From Eledone cirrhosa (Eukaryota), in assembly GCA_964016885.1 (NCBI GenBank), contig OZ024743.1, positions 97,030,001 through 97,094,000 of the forward strand: a stretch of 64,000 bases of DNA, written 5' to 3'. Below are positions 1-62,036 of the stretch, piece by piece. Below the pieces are notes generated by a model, which did not search any database, was not told the origin of the DNA, and saw only the letters and a program-made list of their open reading frames with translations. The position numbers were made by a program, and so were the translations under genes. Every line of letters begins with the position of its first letter. Position 1 is the stretch's first letter.

Positions 1-3000
1 TGTCTAAAACACATCTGTGTATGTCTTATTGTGTGTGCTTCTGTGTCTGTCTAAAACACATCTGTGTATGTCTTATTGTGTGTGCTTCTGTGCCTGTCTA
101 AAACACATCTGTGTATGTCTTATTGTGTGTGCTTCTGTGTCTGTCTAAAACACATCCGTGTATGTCTTATTGTGTGTGCTTCTGTGTCTGTCAAAAACAC
201 ATCTGTGTATGTCTTATTGTGTGTGCTTCTGTGCCTGTCTAAAACACATCTGTGTATGTCTTATTGTGTGTGCTTCTGTGTCTGTCTAAAACACATCCGT
301 GTATGTCTTATTGTGTGTGCTTCTGTGTCTGTCTAAAACACATCTGTGTATGTCTTATTGTGTGTGCTTCTGTGCCTGTCTAAAACACATCTGTGTATGT
401 CTTATTATGTGTGCTTCTGTGTCTGTCTAAAACACATCTGTGTATGTCTTATTGTGTGTGCTTCTGTGCCTGTCTAAAACACATCTGTGTATGTCTTATT
501 GTGTGTGCTTCTGTGTCTGTCTAAAACACATCTGTGTATGTCTTATTGTGTGTGCTTCTGTGTCTGTCTAAAACACATCTGTGTATGTCTTATTGTGTGC
601 GCTTCTGTGCCTGTCTAAAACACATTTGTGTATGTCTTATTGTGTGTGCTTCTGTGTCTTCTAAAACACATCTGTGTATGTCTTGTGTGTGCCTCTGTGT
701 CTATCTAAAACACATCTGTGTATGTCTTGTGTGTGCCTCTGTGTCTGTCTAAAACACATCTGTGTATGTCTTATTGTGTGTGCTTCTGTGTCTGTCTAAA
801 ACACATCTGTGTATGTCTTATTGTGTGTGCTTCTGTGCCTGTCTAAAACACATCTGTGTATGTCTTATTGTGTGTGCTTCTGTGTCTGTCTAAAACACAT
901 CTGTGTATGCCTTGTGTGTGCCTCTGTGTCTGTCTAAAACACATCTGTGTATGTCTTGTGTGTGCCTCTGTGTCTGTCTAAAACACATCTGTGTATGTCT
1001 TATTGTGTGTGCCTCTGTGTCTGTCTAAAACACATCTGTGTATGTCTTATTGTGTGTGCTTCTGTGTCTGTCTAAAACACATCTGTGTATGTCTTATTGT
1101 GTGTGCCTCCGTGTCTGTCTAAAACACATCTGTGTATGTCTTATTGTGTGTGCTTCTCTGTCTGTCTAAAACACAACTGTGTATGTCTTATTATGTGTGC
1201 CTCTGTGTCTGTCTAAAACACATCTGTGTATGTCTTATTGTGTGTGCTTCTGTGTCTGTCTAAAACACATCTTTGTATTTCTTATTGTGTGTGCTTCTGT
1301 GTCTGTCTAAAATACATCTGTGTATGTCTTATTGTGTGTGCTTCTGTGTCTGTCTAAAACACATCTGTGTATGTCTTATTGTGTGTGCTTCTGTGTCTGT
1401 CTAAAACACATCTGTGTATGTCTTGTGTGTGCCTCTGTGTCTGTCTAAAACACATCTGTGTATGTCTTATTGTGTGTGCTTCTGTGTCTGTCTAAAACAC
1501 ATCTGTGTATGTCTTATTGTGTGTGCTTCTGTGTCTATCTAAAACACATCTGTGTATGTCTTATTGTGTGTGCCTCTGTGTCTGTCTAAAACACATCTGT
1601 GTATGTCTTGTGTGTGCCTCTGTGTCTGTCTAAAACACATCTGTGTATGTCTTGTGTGTGCCTCTGTGTCTGTCTAAAACACATCTGTGTATGTCTTATT
1701 GTGTGTGCCTCTGTGTCTGTCTAAAACACATCTGTGTATGTCTTATTGTGTGTGCTTCTGTGTCTGTCTAAAACACATCTGTGTATGTCTTATTGTGTGT
1801 GCTTCTGTGTCTGTCTAAAACACATCTGTGTATGTCTTATTGTGTGTGCCTCTGTGTCTGTCTAAAACACATATGTGTATGTCTTGTGTGTGCCTCTGTG
1901 TCTGTCTAAAACACATCTGTGTATGTCTTATTGTGTGTGCTTCTGTGTCTGTCTAAAACACATCTGTGTATGTCTTATTGTGTGTGCCTCTGTGTCTGTC
2001 TAAAACACATCTGTGTATGTCTTATTGTGTGTGCTTCTGTGTCTGTCTAAAACACATCTGTGTATGTCTTATTGTGTGTGCCTCTGTGTCTGTCTAAAAC
2101 ACATCTGTGTATGTCTTATTGTGTGTGCTTCTGTGTCTGTCTAAAACACATCTGTGTATGTCTTATTGTGTGTGCTTCTGTGTCTGTCTAAAACACATCT
2201 GTGTATGTCTTATTGTGTGTGCTTCTGTGTCTGTCTAAAACACATCTGTGTATGTCTTGTGTGTGCCTCTGTGTCTGTCTAAAACACATCTGTGTATGTC
2301 TTATTGTGTGTGCTTCTGTGTCTGTCTAAAACACATCTGTGTATGTCTTATTGTGTGTGCTTCTGTGTCTATCTAAAACACATCTGTGTATGTCTTATTG
2401 TGTGTGCCTCTGTGTCTGTCTAAAACACATCTGTGTATGTCTTGTGTGTGCCTCTGTGTCTGTCTAAAACACATCTGTGTATGTCTCGTGTGTGCCTCTG
2501 TGTCTGTCTAAAACACATCTGTGTATGTCTTATTGTGTGTGCCTCTGTGTCTGTCTAAAACACATCTGTGTATGTCTTATTGTGTGTGCTTCTGTGTCTG
2601 TCTAAAACACATCTGTGTATGTCTTATTGTGTGTGCCTCTGTGTCTGTCTAAAACACATCTGTGTATGTCTTATTGTGTGTGCTTCTGTGTCTGTCTAAA
2701 ACACATCTGTGTATGTCTTATTGTGTGTGCTTCTGTATCTGTCTAAAACACATCTGTGTACGTCATTATTGTGTGTGCTTCTGTGTCTGTCTAAAACACA
2801 TCTGTGTATGTCTTATTGTGTGTGCCTCTGTGTCTGTCTAAAACACATCTGTGTATGTCTTATTGTGTGTGCTTCTGTGTCTGTCTAAAACACATCTGTG
2901 TATGTCTTATTGTGTGTGCCTCTGTGTCTGTCTAAAACACATCTGTGTATGTCTTATTGTGTGTGCCTCTGTGCCTGTCTAAAACACATCTGTGTATGTC

Positions 3001-3168
3001 TTGTGTGTGCCTCTGTGTCTATTTAAAACACATCTGTGTATGTCTTATTGTGTGTCCTTCTGTGTCTGTCTAAAACACATCTGTGTATGTCTTATTGTGT
3101 GTCCTTCTGTGCCTGTCTAAAACACATCTGTGTATGTCTTATTGTGTGTCCTTCTGTGCCTGTCTAAA
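1..3168. repeat. 47-bp tandem satellite (about 68 copies, includes 44-bp variants; runs off the left edge)
   Basis: Unit TGTCTAAAACACATCTGTGTATGTCTTATTGTGTGTGCTTCTGTGTC recurs every 47 nt (1, 48, ...). A variant lacking 3 nt gives 44 nt. The array ends at ...tgtctaaagg. Confidence 0.97.
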
Positions 3169-28544: not shown

Positions 28545-29410
28545 GCAAAATACCGTCAAAGCGGCGTTGGGTAAAATATCACCTCGAAGGACAGAGATGA
28601 GCGGCTAGATGTGACTTGACTCGACTCGAAGGAAGGAAGAAAAGATAAGAAGGAGGAAAAGGGATGGATGAGAGTGAACAGGTCACACACATTGAAATAT
28701 GCTCTTCAGATCTCAACCTCCTGCAGTTTAGACAAATTAATGAGATTACTGCGGGGAAAGTGAAGGCGCGTGGCTTAGTGGTTAGAGCATTGGGCTTGCA
28801 ATCGAAAGGTTGTGAGTTTAATTCTCAAACCGGGTGATGTGTTGTTTCCTTGAGCAAAACACTTTATTTCACGTTGCTCCAGTTTACTCAGCTGTAGAAA
28901 TGAGATGATAGGGTTTGGGGTCCATATCATTAAATTACCCAAGACACCTCCAACGAGATATACCTTGGAGGAGGCCAGCTAAACTTGTATAGGTGTGAGC
29001 TGTCGCCGCACACAATAGGGGGCTCGTAACGGAGAAACAAATATCTTGGTTCATATAATGTTTGTGTTGGGACAGGTTAGAGGAAGAGGGAGTGTGTCTG
29101 ATCGACCCCAAGTCATCGCGAGAAAGGAAGAATGTTGGCGTCAGTAGAGCTGACCTGTAGAAGGGAGAGAGGGGGGAGGGAGAAGAAGGTGACAGTGGGA
29201 GGGAGAGATAGGAAGCAGTGAGAGAGAATGGAGGTCTCTCTCTAACCTGTCCCAACACAAACATTATATGAGCCTCCTTCCAGGTAATATTTTACCCAAC
29301 GCCGCTTCGACGGCATTTAGCGGTTCTAACAGCTTCCATACGTCCAGTTTTCCCATTTCCCTGAGAACCTAAATACACTCGCGTCTCAAAAATCTATTTT
29401 AGAGTTAATT
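28545..29410. mobile_element. TA-flanked element with inverted segments, interrupted by SINE A (28765-28930, +)
   Basis: 28547-28591 is inverted at 29276-29318, and 29051-29082 is inverted at 29240-29271. Confidence 0.5.
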
Positions 29411-35446: not shown

Positions 35447-37690
35447 ACAATCTCAAAACAAGCCCCCTGCAACAGTCAAAACCAGCCACCACACTAGCTT
35501 CCACATTTTTACTCAATACACAAGGTATCAGCCCATCCATCAATGCACAGAAATGGAAGATTCAATTCATTGAGGATTGGGTTGGTAACCATCCATTTCA
35601 CATCCCCTTCTTCATTCTTACTAAGACCCACCTTGACAACTCCCACTTGGAGGCCGAAGTAAGAGTGAGAAATTTCACAACTATCCGTGCGGATCGTGTT
35701 GGCAGAAGGATCGTGTTGGGACTGCCATTTTCCTGCATGACTCCTTTACAGCAGATGGTAACACAACATTCTCCAATGGCTACTGTGAATCAGTCACTGT
35801 GCACAACAAAGCCAATGACCTGACATTAGTTGGGCTTTTAGGCGGGTTTGAAACCAGGCACTCCAACCTCAACCACTGACAAAGAAGCTGTCGAGTCACT
35901 TCTTGACTTCATGAATGAGTTTTTCTTGTCACAACTTGTCCTTGCACCAACGAGGCATCAGAAGAACATTCTAGATCTAGTGTTTAGTAACCAGACTAAC
36001 ACTATACATAATATTACAGTGGAAAAAACTCTTCTCTGGTTCTTTGTAACCTGAGATTCAACAAGCCGAAAGCTAATCCTAGGGACCTCTTTCCAGCCCA
36101 TCCATTTGATAACATGGATCTCTACAATGCCAACTGGGATGCAATTATGAATGAACTATATCACATGTTGACTGGTCTTTTACACACGCACACACTTCCA
36201 CCAACATCAAAACATCTTGGCAGATCTTTGTAGACACTGTCACAAATATATGTACAAAACACACTCCACCAAAACCTGTGAACAAAACTAACTGCAGTAT
36301 CCCCCAAAACAGAAAAACAATTATCGGAAAAATAAAAAGAACAAACAAAAAAATTAACACACTAAAATACTGCCAACAGCAACACACACATTCAATGGCT
36401 ATCACCCTGCTTGAATAAAAAAAAATATAACCTCCAACAATGCATGAAGACTATAATCAATAACCAAAGAACAGCTGAAGAGAGGTGGGCCATTGAGAAA
36501 ATCAAACTCAACCCCAAAGTGTTCTTTTCATTTGCTAAAAAACACAAGGTCACTGTCTCCACTGTTGGCCCCCTAGTTGATGAAAATCGCATTCTCCAAG
36601 ACATTGCCAAAACCATGGGTGAGATACTGCAGAAACAATACTGCTCTGTTTTCAGCAATCCTGATTTGGCCGATCTGGGCTGTATCAGTGATGTTAATCC
36701 CCAACACACTATATCGGACATAACGTTTGGCGCCCCTGATGTCTTAGCGGCAATAAACGAAATTAAACAATTCAGCAGTAGGCCCCGACAAGTGCCCTGC
36801 TTGTGTCCTGAAGGTGTGTTGACACCGACTTGCATCTCCTCTTGCTAATCTGTGGAGGAACACACTGGATACTGGCTATATTCCTGAAAACTTTCTGTTC
36901 CAGTCCGTTGTCCCAGTCTTCAAAAAGGGAAATAAGTCCCTTGCAGTGAACTAACGTCCGATCTCACTCACCTCTCATATTATCAAGGTATTTGAGAGGG
37001 TGGTGAGATCACGAATAAACCACTTTCTTGAAAGTAGTGGCCTGCTAAACTCCAACCTACATGGGTTCCGTAATGGAAGGGACTGCCTAACGAAGCTCCT
37101 GCATCATTTTGACGATGCTTTGAGAGCCTTGGGAGAGGGCTCCAACACCGATGTCATCTACATTGATTTCAGCAAGGCCTTTGACAGGGTACATCATAAG
37201 ATTCTACTGAAAAAACTATCCAATATTGGTGTCTCTGGAAAGTTACTACAGTGGATCAAATGTTTCCTGACAGACAGAACCCAACATGTAGTCGAAGGAG
37301 TAAAATCAAGCCCTGCCAAAGTCAGTAGTGGCGTCCCACAAGGCACTGTGTTGGGCCCACTTCTTTTCATCATCTACGTTAATGACATTACTGACATCAT
37401 CAAGCACAACAACATAGGAATCTTCGCAGATGATTCCAAGCTCCAAAGGGTCATCAATGAGGTGGGTGACCGGACTTGCCTTCAGTCAGACCTACTGGCT
37501 GTTATCCAATGGGCAGAAACGAATAATATGCTGTTGAATGAGGATAAGTTTGAATTAATCCACTTTGGAAAAAAGGATGCCATGAAACTACCATACTCTC
37601 TTCCTTCAGGTGAAACTCTAGTGGCATCCAACAACATCAGAGACCTGGGAGTATTTGTGGACAACAACATAAGCTGGGCCACTCATATAG
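35447..37690 (+). mobile_element. CR1-group LINE ORF2 remnant (APE endonuclease and RT), frameshifted and truncated
   Basis: LLNTQG...LTKTHL...IRADR; PTRHQKNILDLVFSN; IKLNPKVFFSFAK; YIDFSKAFDRVHH; SGVPQGTVLGPLLFIIYVNDI; FADDSKL; RDLGVFVD. Confidence 0.9.
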
Positions 37691-37751
37691 TTTGTCGTAT
37701 TCCAAATTTTTTTAATATATAAAATATTTATTTTATAATATTCATGTTCTT

Positions 37752-37795
<44 letters not shown>

Positions 37796-37802
<7 letters not shown>

Positions 37803-40800
37803 GAAACACACAGATACATGCGGACACACACATATATACATGAATGCATCCGCACCCAACTGTGAGTTAAGGGTGCCAACTTCACCGATGTTGCTCAATG
37901 AATGACTGGGACAGACTAATTCAGTTTGAACCAGACTGAACCAGTATCAGAGTTAAAAATACATTATGAAGAGAGAAGAAACATTTAGATATAATTAGTA
38001 ATAAAATGTATCATACCTAAACTGTTCCTAAATTCCTCGACTACGTAGTTTCGTGGCATAAACAAAAACAATATATCAAAGATATAGAGTCCCTGCGAGG
38101 TCTGCCGACTTATCAAGAGGATACCTCATTTTACTAGTCTCAAGAACGCGTCTACACGACGTGAGAAAGAATCCCAAAAGGCGGAGGGGGAGATAGTCAC
38201 GCGATATAACGGTCGAGAAACAGAGCTAAGCCTCTTATAACCACGAAGAAAATACCACGGAGGCGGAGGGGGTATTCATATCGAGGCCGTAGAAGAGGTA
38301 GTGAAGAAGGCGAGAAGTATGAGTAATGGAAGCTTTCCAGTTGTCCCCACACTTCAAAGATTGCTCGACCAGAGGGAGTTATTAATATATTTAGAAACAC
38401 ACAGATACATGCGGACACACACATATATACATGAATGCATCCGCACCCAACTGTGAGTTAAGGGTGCCAACTTCACCGATGTTGCTCAATGAATGACTGG
38501 GACAGACTAATTCAGTTTGAACCAGACTGAACCAGTATCAGAGTTAAAAATACATTATGAAGAGAGAAGAAACATTTAGATATAATTAGTAATAAAATGT
38601 ATCATACCTAAACTGTTCCTAAATTCCTCGACTACGTAGTTTCGTGGCATAAACAAAAACAATATATCAAAGATATAGAGTCCCTGCGAGGTCTGCCGAC
38701 TTATCAAGAGGATACCTCATTTTACTAGTCTCAAGAACGCGTCTACACGACGTGAGAAAGAATCCCAAAAGGCGGAGGGGGAGATAGTCACGCGATATAA
38801 CGGTCGAGAAACAGAGCTAAGCCTCTTATAACCACGAAGGAAATACCACGGAGGCGGAGGGGGTATTCATATCGAGGCCGTAGAAGAGGTAGTGAAGAAG
38901 GCGAGAAGTATGAGTAATGGAAGCTTTCCAGTTGTCCCCACACTTCAAAGATTGCTCGACCAGAGGGAGTTATTAATATATTTAGAAACACACAGATACA
39001 TGCGGACACACACATATATACATGAATGCATCCGCACCCAACTGTGAGTTAAGGGTGCCAACTTCACCGATGTTGCTCAATGAATGACTGGGACAGACTA
39101 ATTCAGTTTGAACCAGACTGAACCAGTATCAGAGTTAAAAATACATTATGAAGAGAGAAGAAACATTTAGATATAATTAGTAATAAAATGTATCATACCT
39201 AAACTGTTCCTAAATTCCTCGACTACGTAGTTTCGTGGCATAAACAAAAACAATATATCAAAGATATAGAGTCCCTGCGAGGTCTGCCGACTTATCAAGA
39301 GGATACCTCATTTTACTAGTCTCAAGAACGCGTCTACACGACGTGAGAAAGAATCCCAAAAGGCGGAGGGGGAGATAGTCACGCGATATAACGGTCGAGA
39401 AACAGAGCTAAGCCTCTTATAACCACGAAGAAAATACCACGGAGGCGGAGGGGGTATTCATATCGAGGCCGTAGAAGAGGTAGTGAAGAAGGCGAGAAGT
39501 ATGAGTAATGGAAGCTTTCCAGTTGTCCCCACACTTCAAAGATTGCTCGACCAGAGGGAGTTATTAATATATTTAGAAACACACAGATACATGCGGACAC
39601 ACACATATATACATGAATGCATCCGCACCCAACTGTGAGTTAAGGGTGCCAACTTCACCGATGTTGCTCAATGAATGACTGGGACAGACTAATTCAGTTT
39701 GAACCAGACTGAACCAGTATCAGAGTTAAAAATACATTATGAAGAGAGAAGAAACATTTAGATATAATTAGTAATAAAATGTATCATACCTAAACTGTTC
39801 CTAAATTCCTCGACTACGTAGTTTCGTGGCATAAACAAAAACAATATATCAAAGATATAGAGTCCCTGCGAGGTCTGCCGACTTATCAAGAGGATACCTC
39901 ATTTTACTAGTCTCAAGAACGCGTCTACACGACGTGAGAAAGAATCCCAAAAGGCGGAGGGGGAGATAGTCACGCGATATAACGGTCGAGAAACAGAGCT
40001 AAGCCTCTTATAACCACGAAGAAAATACCACGGAGGCGGAGGGGGTATTCATATCGAGGCCGTAGAAGAGGTAGTGAAGAAGGCGAGAAGTATGAGTAAT
40101 GGAAGCTTTCCAGTTGTCCCCACACTTCAAAGATTAGGAACAGTTTAGGTATGATACATTTAGGAACAGTTTAGGTATGATACATTTTATTACTAATTAT
40201 ATCTAAATGTTTCTTCTCTCTTCATAATGTATTTTTAACTCTGATACTGGTTCAGTCTGGTTCAAACTGAATTAGTCTGTCCCAGTCATTCATTGAGCAA
40301 CATCGGTGAAGTTGGCACCCTTAACTCACAGTTGGGTGCGGATGCATTCATGTATATATGTGTGTGTCCGCATGTATCTGTGTGTTTCTAAATATATTAA
40401 TAACTCCCTCTGGTCGAGCAATCTTTGAAGTGTGGGGACAACTGGAAAGCTTCCATTACTCATACTTCTCGCCTTCTTCACTACCTCTTCTACGGCCTCG
40501 ATATGAATACCCCCTCCGCCTCCGTGGTATTTCCTTCGTGGTTATAAGAGGCTTAGCTCTGTTTCTCGACCGTTATATCGCGTGACTATCTCCCCCTCCG
40601 CCTTTTGGGATTCTTTCTCACGTCGTGTAGACGCGTTCTTGAGACTAGTAAAATGAGGTATCCTCTTGATAAGTCGGCAGACCTCGCAGGGACTCTATAT
40701 CTTTGATATATTGTTTTTGTTTATGCCACGAAACTACGTAGTCGAGGAATTTAGGAACAGTTTAGGTATGATACATTTTATTACTAATTATATCTAAATG

Positions 40801-41412
40801 TTTCTTCTCTCTTCATAATGTATTTTTAACTCTGATACTGGTTCAGTCTGGTTCAAACTGAATTAGTCTGTCCCAGTCATTCATTGAGCAACATCGGTGA
40901 AGTTGGCACCCTTAACTCACAGTTGGGTGCGGATGCATTCATGTATATATGTGTGTGTCCGCATGTATCTGTGTGTTTCTAAATATATTAATAACTCCCT
41001 CTGGTCGAGCAATCTTTGAAGTGTGGGGACAACTGGAAAGCTTCCATTACTCATACTTCTCGCCTTCTTCACTACCTCTTCTACGGCCTCGATATGAATA
41101 CCCCCTCCGCCTCCGTGGTATTTTCTTCGTGGTTATAAGAGGCTTAGCTCTGTTTCTCGACCGTTATATCGCGTGACTATCTCCCCCTCCGCCTTTTGGG
41201 ATTCTTTCTCACGTCGTGTAGACGCGTTCTTGAGACTAGTAAAATGAGGTATCCTCTTGATAAGTCGGCAGACCTCGCAGGGACTCTATATCTTTGATAT
41301 ATTGTTTTTGTTTATGCCACGAAACTACGTAGTCGAGGAATTTAGGAACAGTTTAGGTATGATACATTTTATTACTAATTATATCTAAATGTTTCTTCTC
41401 TCTTCATAATGT
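37796..41412. repeat. 591-bp tandem array with inversion (about 4 copies minus, about 2.1 copies plus), each unit with a hammerhead ribozyme; retrozyme-like
   Basis: Period is exactly 591 (ORF-track copies at 38197/38788/39379 and 40358/40949). The inversion junction is at about 40134. Both ends run into (TA)n. Confidence 0.9.
40661..40748 (+). ncRNA. type I hammerhead ribozyme, U3-A8 variant (also 41252-41339 +; 38034-38121, 38625-38712, 39216-39303, 39807-39894 -)
   Basis: TCCTC TTGATAA GTCGGCA-(44 nt)-TGCCAC GAAA CTACGTAG TC GAGGA. Stem I is TCCTC/GAGGA, stem III is palindromic, and the GUC cleavage triplet ends at 40743. Confidence 0.75.
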
Positions 41413-41582
41413 ATATATATATATATATATATATATGAGAAAGAACGTGAATATTATAAAATAAATATTTTATATATAAAAAGCGACCGGCTGAGGTTGA
41501 AGGAACGGAATAGCGGTCGCCCTCGGGTCTCGATTTTCAGCCCCATGGATTTTACCTATTACATTCACGTATTATATTTCGA

Positions 41583-58779: not shown

Positions 58780-61700
58780 CCGCATGACCAGAGTAGGCCC
58801 ACTCACACGGGCCATTCTCGCCACATTCACCCACCTTTCAGCAAATGTACTGGGGGGGGGGGGGGGAGCACTTCTCTCTCCACCCTCACCTTCCTTTCCA
58901 AGTGAAACTTGAAAAAGTTGATGAGGGATTGGCCGAAGAGAATAGTGTCTGTCTTAAGTCCTTTCAACCTTGTTCACCATACAACCTCTTTCGCTACTGC
59001 CACCAGACAGAGGAAAATTGCCTGCCCTTCCTGGCCAAAAGAAGGCGGCGGGTCGATCTTCACTATGGACTCGGCCGATAGCCGGATCCGTTCTACACGC
59101 GACAACAGCTGTTCAACATAACTCCACAAGTCAGTAATGCACGGACACTGGACGAGTGCGCACATCTCGGGCAGGTCCGTCTGACAGCACTTCCGTGCCT
59201 GTAGAGTTTATCTCGAACCGGCAGTGCCCCCCGGTAGCACTGCCAAGCGAGGGATTTTTGGAAATTATCCATCGTCCCCGGCTCGAAAGTCCTCCGGTAC
59301 AGACTGGTTAGTTCGACTTCGTTGACTCCCAGAGCCTCTCCGAGTGCGTCGTCGCACTTGCCCACCACTAATCCTCTATAGAACTCGAGAGTGGAAGTTA
59401 CACTGACCGCATTGCCCGCCTGGTAGAGGGCAGTGAGTGCCTGGCAACATTCCAGATGCCAGTCACCCAGTCTCGGTCTCTTCTTGACCCAGGACTGCAG
59501 CTCAGTCAAAGAAACGAGCTGCGGAAAGGCCCGTCTAACAAACGGCGACCACACTTGTTCACTGTTTAGGCAGAATATCTGAAGATGCCGCAGCCTCAGC
59601 GCGTGCCTGCGCATCATTAACCACGGCATGCCCAGCCCTCCACGTAGACGGTGCTGGCAGCAGATGGACTGCCTCACCAGCGGAACCTGACCCCTCCACA
59701 AGAATTTGAAGAGGAGCCGCTCCAAGATGGCGAGGTGCGAACGGGGGCAAGGGACGACGGTCAGACGGTAGTAGTTGACGGACGCGATGTACACGTTCGC
59801 CACCTCCGCCCGACCTTTCAGTGATAGCTTCATCCCAGCCCATTTCTGAGTGAAACTGGCTACCCTGCCCGTCACCTCGTCCCAATTCTTATCCACCTGG
59901 AGGTCTGGCCCGAACCAAACCCCTAGCATCTTTACCGGTCCGTCCGTCCAGCGCCTAACGACGCTGTTGGACGGCATGGACTTGCCTCTCCAGGTGCCGA
60001 GTTGCAAGCCCACCGACTTTTCCGGGCTAAGTTTAGCTCCCGTCAACCTTTCATATTCCTCCAATAAGCTGCCGACCACCTCGATTTCTGAGGTGTCCGA
60101 CACCATCACGGTGATGTCGTCCGCACAAGCCGACACAGCCTTTCCGCGTCCCTGTTCGAGCGGGATGCCCTGCAACAGCTCCAGCTTCCGCAGTAAAGGC
60201 TCGAGAGTCAATACGTACAGAAGGGAGGAGAGAGGGCACCCTCGACGGACCAATCGGGAGACCTGAAACGGTTCCGAGAGGTGGCCATTAATTTTGACCA
60301 TCGAGCAGGTGCCGCTGTGCATTGCAGTGATCCAGCTTCTGAAGACGGGGCCGAAGCCAGCCGCCTTGAGGACAGCCTCCAGGTACCGATGGTCGACCCT
60401 ATCGAATGCTTTCGATTGATCTAAATTGATCAGCGCCCCACCGAAGCCAGGTTTACACCCTACCCTCTCTATGATGTATCGCATTAGGTGGAGGTTGTCG
60501 TGTATGGACCCAGTTGGGATTGCGCAAGTTTGCGCCTCCCCAACCAAATCCCCGACGACAAGCGCCAACCTCTTCGCTAACACCCTGGCCAAAATCTTAA
60601 ACTCTGTGTTGAGCAGAGTTATGGGCCTGAAATTGTCTAATGTGTCCCTCTTGTTCTCGTCTTTCCTTATCAGCGTCACTACGCCCCGGCTCACAGAACT
60701 GAGAATACTCCTGTTTTGCTGCCAGTTGCAGTAGAGGGCTTCGAGGAGATTGGAGAACAAGTCTGGCATATTTACGTAAAGCTCGTATGGCAGTATCTGA
60801 CCCGCCACTTCCCCCGAACAACCGAGCAAAATGTTGGCGATAGGCCTCACACATCCTCTTGGAATCGCTCAGCTCGTGCCCGTCTCGGTCCGTCAAAGAC
60901 CGAATCGTGGTTTTATTACCACGCTGCGCCTCTGCCACGCGGGCCCATCGAACAGCTTTGGTTCCCTCGTTTCTAAGAGCACGCGCCTTAGCTCTGACAA
61001 TGCAACCTTCGTGTTTCGCATTGAAGAAATGGTCTAATGCCATTCTCGCCGCTAGCACGTCAGTTGCAATGCCACTACCAATAGCCTCGTCTAACTTATC
61101 TACCAACTCCCCCCTCCTTTCTATTTTTCTCTAACGCTACTTCTTTGCTAAACTCTATCGACATTACTCCAATTTCTCTTTTGAGAGCCCCCCCACCATC
61201 TATTGTTGACGACATGCCCTGTCAACTTTTTCTTAACTAAATTGTTGACCTGGTCCCTGTAAGCCTTACGTGCCGGAAATGACACGTTTAGCATCTAGTA
61301 ACCAGGTCCTAACCTACGCGTCTTATCTAGGTCGACTATACAGATCACAAACTTGTGATCTGAATAAGCGACCGTTTCAAAACATGGACAGCTTACACTA
61401 TTTCTGTCTATTTTCCTAATGAATATCCTGTCTATATACGATCTAGATGATCCTATGCGGTTAACCCAGGTCCACACTAGCGCATTAGGGAAATCTAGTC
61501 GGTACCTGTCAGACAGTTGGAACTGGCTGATCAGGTTCTTGAGGCTTTTGCACCCCCCGCTCCTATCGGATACTCTCACACAGTCCCAGCGTGCGTATAA
61601 GATGCCGTTCCAGTCCCCCGCTAACAATAAAGGGCGAGACGTACCCAGAAAGGCTTCCAGGCGTCTAAAGAAGTCCGGCCGTCCTGCCCCAGTAGGAGCA

Positions 61701-62036
61701 TAGACGGCCACCAGTCTAAAGGCACCACCTTCGTTATTGTTCACGTCCAGGACCACCAACTTCCCGTCCGGGTCCCGGAAGATCGACCTTACCTCGAGAT
61801 CCAGGCCTTTCCTAAACAGCACTGCCACCCCGCCTCCCATTCCCGGCCGGCTAACAGATGCAAAGATCTGATAGTCGTCGAAAATGGGGGATAGTGCGCG
61901 CGTGTCGGAAATCCTGGTCCCGCTGACTACAATTACAACCATTTCTATAGACCTGAGGTCGTTGAGCAGGTGACACCTGTTTCCAGGACGATCCCAGGCC
62001 TCGAACATTTAAACATCCTACTCTTAATACGGCCAC
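58780..62036 (-). pseudogene. ORF2 (APE endonuclease, reverse transcriptase, zinc-binding domain) of the Tx1-like LINE, disrupted
   Basis: ORF-track pieces 61851-62036, 61295-62008, 60597-61106, 59093-60850 and 58974-59165 are in different frames. Confidence 0.88.

What the first reader, a model, noticed from the sequence alone, without database searches (positions are those of the whole stretch)
40134..40190. The inverted arm of the array begins about 7 nt downstream of the predicted ribozyme cleavage site
Seen: in the unit, the sequence after the cleavage triplet is GTC|GAGGAAT-TTAGGAACAG. The plus arm starts at TTAGGAACAG (40134), with its first 26 nt duplicated (40135-40160 and 40161-40186), and then runs through two intact ribozymes. 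Inference: the cDNA was copied from a multimeric RNA whose 5' end was made by hammerhead self-cleavage, with an RT stutter or jump at the template end. That would be a genomic footprint of in vivo activity of the variant ribozyme.
Basis: partly seen in the sequence, partly recalled or inferred. Interest (0 to 1): 0.75.

Follow-up and report, generated by a model that had tools for sequence, protein, structure and literature searches.

The report
Ribozyme-cut footprint in retrozyme insertions
This is one end of a jumping repeat that carries a predicted self-cutting RNA; across the genome such ends are several times denser just after the predicted cut than just before it, which likely records the cut happening in living cells, although this single end could also be chance.

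Summary
Observation confirmed: the plus arm starts 5-9 nt past the predicted hammerhead cut, with a 26-nt duplication. The array is one of thousands of insertions of a 591-nt non-coding retrozyme in (TA)n. All 91 plain two-armed copies sampled pair a 3' end 80 nt past the cut with one 245 nt past it, the Penelope 'tail' pattern; the scan noted this family and its twin ends before, on other DNA. Inner 5' ends are scattered (338 read-throughs of the site, 6 stops on it), but genome-wide they rise 3.6-fold at the predicted cut (12 in 11 positions before, 83 in 21 after; p 1e-6) and fade over ~40 nt. A sequence-unrelated Penelope element with the same core shows a 2.8-fold rise at its own site. 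Against: a stronger hot spot lies at a hairpin with no ribozyme, and here the partner arm, copied from the same template lineage, runs 920 nt further, so the site is a leaky barrier, not a template end. A ribozyme-made nick or ligation scar is likely for the family (0.6); for this junction about 0.35-0.4. No RNA data.

The parts
40134..41414 (+). Arm A of the insertion: 5' end q6-q10, 2.1 units, 3' end at q80 (CATAATGTA then TA repeat)
37794..40135 (-). Arm B: 5' end q268, 3.96 units, 3' end at q245 (TTTCTAAATATAT then TA repeat); crosses the predicted cut four times
40134..40135 (.). Inversion junction, 2-nt microhomology TT shared by both arms
40134..40187 (+). 26-nt head duplication of q8-q33; re-entry through ATTT (q6-9 = q32-35) at 40158-40161
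40661..40748 (+). Type I hammerhead motif, U3-A8 core (UUGAUAA), long stem II, palindromic stem III ACUACGUAGU, predicted cut after GUC at 40743
   Evidence: no Rfam hit at gathering score
41252..41339 (+). Second hammerhead motif of arm A, predicted cut after 41334
38034..39894 (-). Four hammerhead motifs of arm B (38034-38121, 38625-38712, 39216-39303, 39807-39894)
40744..40814 (+). Predicted RNA hairpin q1/q11-q62/q71, just 5' of priming site q80; its outer stem uses GAGGA and competes with ribozyme stem I
   Evidence: z -4.3 for the 101-nt stretch
40914..40978 (+). Predicted RNA hairpin q171-q235, just 5' of priming site q245; second hot spot of 5' ends (q169-q181) at its base
   Evidence: z -4.5
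40533..40533 (+). q381 T>C in the second lap from the 3' end of arm A; same change at 38840 in the second lap of arm B, other laps T
37756..37799 (.). (TA)n target, left
41412..41436 (.). (TA)n target, right

Best explanation
The junction is the inner end of one arm of a two-armed insertion of a 591-nt non-coding hammerhead repeat, and it lies in a zone just after the predicted cut where such ends are about 3.6-fold denser than just before it, likely because the RNA template carries a ribozyme-made break or ligation scar there that a borrowed reverse transcriptase usually crosses but sometimes stalls at. Steps. (1) Shown: both ends of a (TA)n target carry copies that end at two fixed places, q80 and q245, always one of each. 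(2) Shown: both arms and all laps share variants, once a haplotype found nowhere else in the genome; inferred: two Penelope-type RTs copy one RNA, usually a monomer circle, round and round. (3) Inferred: the circle is made by hammerhead cleavage and ligation, so every lap passes the junction at q591/q1. (4) Shown: about 5% of passes end in q590-q19 against about 2% in control windows, on first and later laps alike; inferred: stall at the nick or scar, loss of 0-40 nt, slippage or repair synthesis (the 26-nt duplication through ATTT), then joining to the other arm by 2-nt microhomology. (5) Inferred: the enzyme comes from a Penelope-like element of this genome with the same core variant and the same 79-nt spacing. 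For this one junction the chance that it belongs to the excess is about 0.55-0.7, and that it records cleavage about 0.35-0.4.
For: Step at the site: 12 ends in q579-589 (11 positions) against 83 in q590-q19 (21 positions), n = 95 of the first 100 rows of 228, p 1e-6; best change point q590, next q1; same step for TA-joined (6:40) and other junctions (6:43) and (5:28). Decay downstream: 9.0, then 6.8, 4.4, 2.9 ends per position genome-scaled; upstream 2.5 and about 3.4. Unbiased C1 sample: 6 ends at q590-q1 against 1.63 expected; 18 of 353 passes against 10 of 506 in two control windows, p 0.018. Unrelated Penelope element, whose downstream RNA has no stable hairpin (z +1.0): 44 ends in 25 positions before, 25 in 5 at the site, n = 69 of the first 100 rows of 756, p 7e-5. 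End duplications 3 of 12 near the site, 1 of 168 elsewhere, p 0.0009; one more in L227. Twin ends: 91 of 91 plain two-armed loci; 1911 and 1038 exact ends genome-wide. One template: 92 of 95 family variants in both arms, 11% in shuffles; the L155 pattern occurs 7 times in the genome, all in that insertion; sense-strand A>G excess 25/133 against T>C 16/212, p 0.003. Core conserved: 96.7% against 79.6% in an older subfamily. Candidate helper: RT plus GIY-YIG, 775 aa, U3-A8 core, ends 79 and 147 nt past its cut.
Against: A stronger hot spot, q169-q181 (53 in 13 positions against 28 in 16; 12.4 against 5.3 per position), sits at the base of a hairpin with no ribozyme, and the predicted hairpin downstream of the cut also starts at q1 or q11, so a step at q1 is not diagnostic by itself. 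The exact site ranks only 9th among 3-nt windows, and q6-8 alone shows no excess in the C1 sample (1 against 1.65). Within the enriched zone the densest part is q8-q13, not q1. In the Penelope test only 5 positions lie at or after the site, they are AT-rich (microhomology to TA could attract joints), the best change point is -3, and 31 of 100 rows were dropped. All pattern tallies were read by eye from the first 100 rows. Local repeats (TTTAGG at q7 and q18, ATTT at q6 and q32) may explain the duplications. In vitro, uncut RNA is the main substrate of a Penelope enzyme and no RNA-seq read began at its cut site (PMC11167929). The q381 change in one lap of each arm here does not fit a pure monomer circle. 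The helper shares no alignable sequence with the unit.
Confidence: 0.55

Rival explanations
1. Structure, not cleavage: 5' ends gather at the 5' base of the long hairpin that precedes each priming site; the cut site merely coincides with the base of hairpin A.
For: Both priming sites lie 10-18 nt 3' of a hairpin of about 60-70 nt; the hot spot at hairpin B is stronger and has no ribozyme; both peaks lie about 5-12 nt into the 5' strand; both are independent of lap.
Against: The Penelope element has no such hairpin (z +1.0) yet shows a rise at its cut; the cDNA of hairpin A folds weakly (z +0.9) while that of B folds (z -2.7), so snap-back fits B only; the strong part of hairpin A starts at q11, while the step is at q590/q1.
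Confidence: 0.25
2. One reading: this arm ran off the 5'-OH end of a linear multimeric RNA cut at the upstream ribozyme, stuttered and jumped to the other arm.
For: End at q6-q10 with a 26-nt re-copy; similar re-copies at q1, q4, q16, q18 and three extra copies of p2-p10 in one Penelope row; q381C in one lap of each arm would fit a multimer.
Against: Arm B carries the same private change in the same lap yet extends 920 nt further 5'; in at least 7 other pairs the partner also runs past the site; no source array with that lap pattern was found, the other q381C copies lie on other haplotypes; arrays are homogeneous by lineage (195 of 198 shared variants in all laps). It survives if two sibling RNA molecules were used.
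Confidence: 0.2
3. This junction is an ordinary random 5' truncation with a repair-made duplication, unrelated to the excess.
For: Background supplies about 30-45% of ends in this zone (2.5-3.4 of 6-9 per position); 20 of 90 inverted junctions hold 4 or more extra bases, most far from the site.
Against: Terminal duplications are rare away from the site (1 of 168).
Confidence: 0.3

Closest known systems
Metazoan non-LTR retrozymes (Cervera and de la Pena 2020, PMC7229834, passages read; Li, Clavereau and Pollet 2026, 10.64898/2026.07.22.740005, part 1 of 5 and passages read)
   Same: Non-coding tandem units, one type I hammerhead per unit, GC under 50%, dispersed multimers, proposed circles and Penelope origin.
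   Different: Unit 591 nt (150-450 described); U3-A8 core with a long stem II; the passages read report no fixed paired ends, no inverted arms ('inverted' 0 hits in PMC7229834) and no map of 5' ends against the cut.
Penelope-like elements: tail, inverted 5'-truncated copy, two internal RT start sites (Frangieh et al. 2024, PMC11167929, parts 1-2 of 4 read; Craig et al. 2021, PMC8557442, passages read)
   Same: Two 3' ends past the hammerhead; both target strands primed; AT-rich or (TA)n target; inverted truncated partner. First start site 80 nt past the cut here, 85-92 nt in PAc (computed from the paper's positions).
   Different: No ORF; tail 165 nt, not 30-40; strict one-of-each pairing; those papers found the ribozyme dispensable in vitro and call its role unclear, while here ends step up at the site.
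U3-A8 hammerhead of Schistosoma Cercyon PLEs; circle-template proposal (Cervera and de la Pena 2014, PMC4209133, passages read)
   Same: Same core swap, palindromic helix III suited to dimers; they propose cut, ligated circles as templates for more-than-unit copies.
   Different: They state that in vivo evidence is absent; here genomic variants and ends bear on it.
L1 twin priming (recalled, no call)
   Same: Two target ends prime two cDNAs that are joined head to head by microhomology.
   Different: In L1 the second primer site varies and the arms barely overlap; here both sites are fixed and the arms overlap by whole units.

Membership tests
Metazoan non-LTR retrozyme | Tandem units each with a type I hammerhead motif | tested here: met
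   Six intact motifs in the array; ribozyme fold -21.1 against -22.9 kcal/mol unconstrained; no Rfam hit at gathering score
Metazoan non-LTR retrozyme | No protein-coding frame | tested here: met
   Longest stop-free run 86 codons in six frames of the dimer
Metazoan non-LTR retrozyme | Dispersed, mobile, many copies | tested here: met
   1911 and 1038 exact ends genome-wide; 99-100% identical copies on many contigs
Metazoan non-LTR retrozyme | Typical size 150-450 nt, GC under 50% (descriptive) | tested here: inconclusive
   GC 42% fits; 591 nt is above the published range, which is a description rather than a limit
Metazoan non-LTR retrozyme | Expressed as linear and circular monomer RNA | not testable with these tools
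   No RNA holder listed; only indirect genomic signs
Hammerhead ribozyme, U3-A8 variant | Core U3 U4 G5 A6 N7 A8 A9, GAAA, NUH, three stems | tested here: met
   14 variant calls in 11339 core positions against 1337 in 166826 elsewhere
Hammerhead ribozyme, U3-A8 variant | Self-cleavage after GUC | not testable with these tools
   Needs transcription assay
Autonomous Penelope-like element | ORF with RT and GIY-YIG | tested here: not met
   None in the unit; present in a separate family. It is not a PLE, it works like PLE cargo
Penelope-type insertion signature | Two 3' ends separated by a tail; inverted 5'-truncated partner; microsatellite target | tested here: met
   91 of 91 plain two-armed loci pair q80 with q245 in (TA)n; 3 further loci with three arms set aside
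Derivative of the pLTR of the candidate helper | Sequence similarity to its pLTR | tested here: not met
   Only microsatellite-like matches in 42 loci of the one PLE family examined, besides one nested unit copy; other PLE families were not examined

The most novel reading that the evidence does not exclude
The 5' ends of thousands of insertions form a genomic record of hammerhead cleavage in the germ line: two Penelope RTs, primed at fixed sites by the two ends of a (TA)n break, roll round one edited, self-cut and re-closed RNA circle and stumble at the cut on every lap, in the retrozyme and in its Penelope helper alike.
Probability: 0.4. Interest if true: 0.75.

Novelty: new variant of a known kind. 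Interest (0 to 1): 0.5.

Why it matters
Whether the hammerheads of Penelope elements and retrozymes cut in vivo, and whether cut or circular RNA is the template for insertion, is open: the papers read call the role unclear, found the ribozyme dispensable in vitro and saw no reads ending at the site. A step in 5'-end density at the predicted bond in two unrelated elements would be in vivo evidence from DNA alone, and the same count can be run on any ribozyme-bearing retroelement. The single junction adds little by itself.

Tried and rejected
Rfam at gathering score: no hammerhead hit. No RNA holder listed; contigs of four runs show only presence and loose (TA)n ends at q80 and q245. Fixed drop-off 60-80 nt after priming as cause of the hot spots: rejected, rates are alike on first and later laps and in both arms (cut site 7/128, 5/80, 4/95, 2/50). 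Coupled stops of both arms at the site: not seen; partners start in q1-q40 in about 8 of 46 non-TA rows, near the 16% expected. Control window q539-q570 was swamped by an older 80%-identical subfamily (499 matches; about 22 true ends in the first 614 Mb, read by eye), so that rate is rough. Source array for q381C: none among 6 matches. Nuclease cutting at hairpin bases (Drosha-like; recalled): would also remove the 3' strand and leave arms of 10-20 nt; set aside. A Pfam accession for PLE search, recalled, was not in the library. Target-site duplications or inverted flanks in other loci: none convincing in 91 loci. Literature searches found no map of 5' ends against the cut site; subscription papers and all supplements were not seen and may bear on this.

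Full report
What is there. Window 37794-41414 is one insertion in a (TA)n tract, made of two head-to-head arms of a 591-nt unit. With q1 as the first base after GUC, the minus arm runs q268 to q245 over 2342 bp, the plus arm q6/q8 to q80 over 1257 bp plus a 26-nt head duplication. Each unit holds a type I hammerhead motif with a U3-A8 core and a palindromic stem III; the core swap is published for Schistosoma PLEs (PMC4209133). The unit has no ORF.

The family. Exact patterns count 1911 ends at q80 and 1038 at q245 next to TA repeats (subfamilies ending at q247 or q76 are missed by these patterns). I fetched the first 100 hits of each list, all on contig C1, removed duplicates, one gap-cut locus and non-terminal segments, and kept 263 arms in 166 loci. 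Of these, 91 are plain two-armed inversions and all 91 pair a q80 end with a q245 end; 39 and 33 are single arms; 3 loci with three arms were set aside. An older subfamily at about 80% identity keeps both ends and the core (96.7% against 79.6% elsewhere). This is the Penelope tail pattern, tied to two RT start sites in vitro (PMC11167929). Earlier notes of this scan describe the same family and twin ends; I saw them after my own tests.

The template. Family variants are in both arms in 92 of 95 cases, 11% after shuffling partners; 195 of 198 shared variants are in every lap of an arm, and 42 variants seen in one locus only are in every lap. One such pattern (L155) occurs 7 times in the genome, in 4 laps of one arm and 3 of the other, nowhere else. 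Inherited variants lean to A>G on the sense strand (25 of 133 A against 16 of 212 T, p 0.003), with 5' G depleted and 3' G enriched, the pattern I recall for A-to-I editing; changes found in only some laps do not (5 A>G, 20 T>C). The simplest reading is one RNA monomer copied round and round by both RTs; a source locus missing from the assembly, or later conversion, is the caveat. This window is an exception: q381C stands in the second lap of each arm only, and the other four genomic matches lie on other haplotypes. A multimer template or conversion between arms would explain it.

In the C1 sample ends are spread widely (chi-square p 0.055), the site is read through 338 times and 6 arms stop at q590-q1 against 1.63 expected; q6-8 holds 1 against 1.65; the top hot spot is q169-q181 with 21 against 6.5. 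For more power I used patterns that demand non-unit bases upstream of a fixed anchor and read the first 100 rows by eye. Around the cut (228 matches; 4 indel rows and 1 duplicate dropped; n = 95): 12 ends in q579-589, 83 in q590-q19; p 1e-6; best change point q590, then q1. Downstream (174 matches; 11 dropped; n = 89): 43, 28, 18 in successive 11-nt bins. Genome-scaled this gives 2.5 per position before the cut, 9.0 after, then 6.8, 4.4 and 2.9, and about 3.4 further upstream; anchor efficiencies are alike, 0.92-0.97. So there is a saw-tooth with its edge at the predicted bond. Per pass, 18 of 353 end in q590-q19 against 10 of 506 in two control windows. Terminal duplications like the one here occur at 3 of 12 paired ends in the zone and 1 of 168 elsewhere.

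Is the edge due to cleavage? Against: at hairpin B (305 matches; 11 dropped; n = 89) 53 ends fall in 13 positions against 28 in 16, with no ribozyme, and the RNA after the cut also folds into a hairpin from q1 or q11. For: an abundant Penelope-like family in the same genome (775-aa RT plus GIY-YIG frame) has a U3-A8 hammerhead, 3' ends 79 and 147 nt past its cut, the second at TTTCTAA then TA as in the retrozyme, and six fully seen inverted copies pair 79 with 147; a seventh pair in L261 is 79/79 but repeats the inner junction of its neighbour and looks like a later duplication. It shares no alignable sequence with the unit and no stable downstream hairpin, yet its ends rise from 44 in 25 positions to 25 in 5 at the site (756 matches; 31 of the first 100 rows dropped as indels, internal deletions or duplications; p 7e-5; change point -3, then -4 and -2). 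AT-rich microhomology may inflate that figure.

What kind of barrier. If the RNA ended at the cut, both arms from one molecule would stop there. They do not: here arm B goes 920 nt further in template terms, and at least 7 other pairs behave alike. Stops are as frequent on later laps as on the first. That fits a nick or ligation scar met on every lap, crossed about 95% of the time, better than a run-off end; two sibling RNAs would rescue the run-off model. These steps are inferred.

Verdict. The locus is a retrozyme insertion of a known kind with Penelope ends. The single junction is weak evidence: about 0.55-0.7 that it belongs to the excess, about 0.6 that the excess comes from cleavage, so about 0.35-0.4. 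The family-wide step, seen in two unrelated elements, is the result worth following; I found no such map in six literature searches, and the papers read leave the in vivo role of these ribozymes open. Supplements were not read. No RNA evidence was available.

Noticed in passing
window 37710-37758 and 41434-41482: The DNA beyond the two TA tracts forms a 49-bp inverted repeat (96% identical); not seen at 91 other loci checked, so probably an older event at this TA tract.
   Followed up: partly
unit q169-q181 (window 40912-40924): Strongest hot spot of 5' ends, at the base of a long hairpin; could be a transcription start or a stall site.
   Followed up: partly
L155 (G000:C1:50595500-50601000): Six variants, four of them A>G, fixed in all laps of both arms; the one pattern searched is unique in the genome. 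The junction holds several repeats of q424-438.
   Followed up: yes
L261-L272: Young Penelope-like family, 4679-nt unit, many intact 775-aa frames, U3-A8 hammerhead with GUA site, ends 79 and 147 nt past the cut in (TA)n; several copies delete the ribozyme core or duplicate the bases just after the cut.
   Followed up: partly
L211-L226: Older subfamily, about 80% identical, about 585-nt unit, same two ends and invariant core.
   Followed up: partly
L228, L229, L230: Near-perfect fold-back junctions in which both arms start within q2-q19.
   Followed up: partly
unit q503-q513 (window 40655-40665): GAGG-UAU-CCUC can form a small hairpin that hides the 5' strand of stem I (circular fold); with the downstream hairpin it may keep the ribozyme mostly off.
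   Followed up: no
window 36955-37719 (+), 59096-62008 (-): LINE-type RT fragments by eye; not scanned against a library.
   Followed up: no
window 28769-28832: Weak tRNA-like match just above the Rfam threshold, possibly a SINE head.
   Followed up: no
window 1-3168: 47-bp satellite, 68 copies.
   Followed up: no
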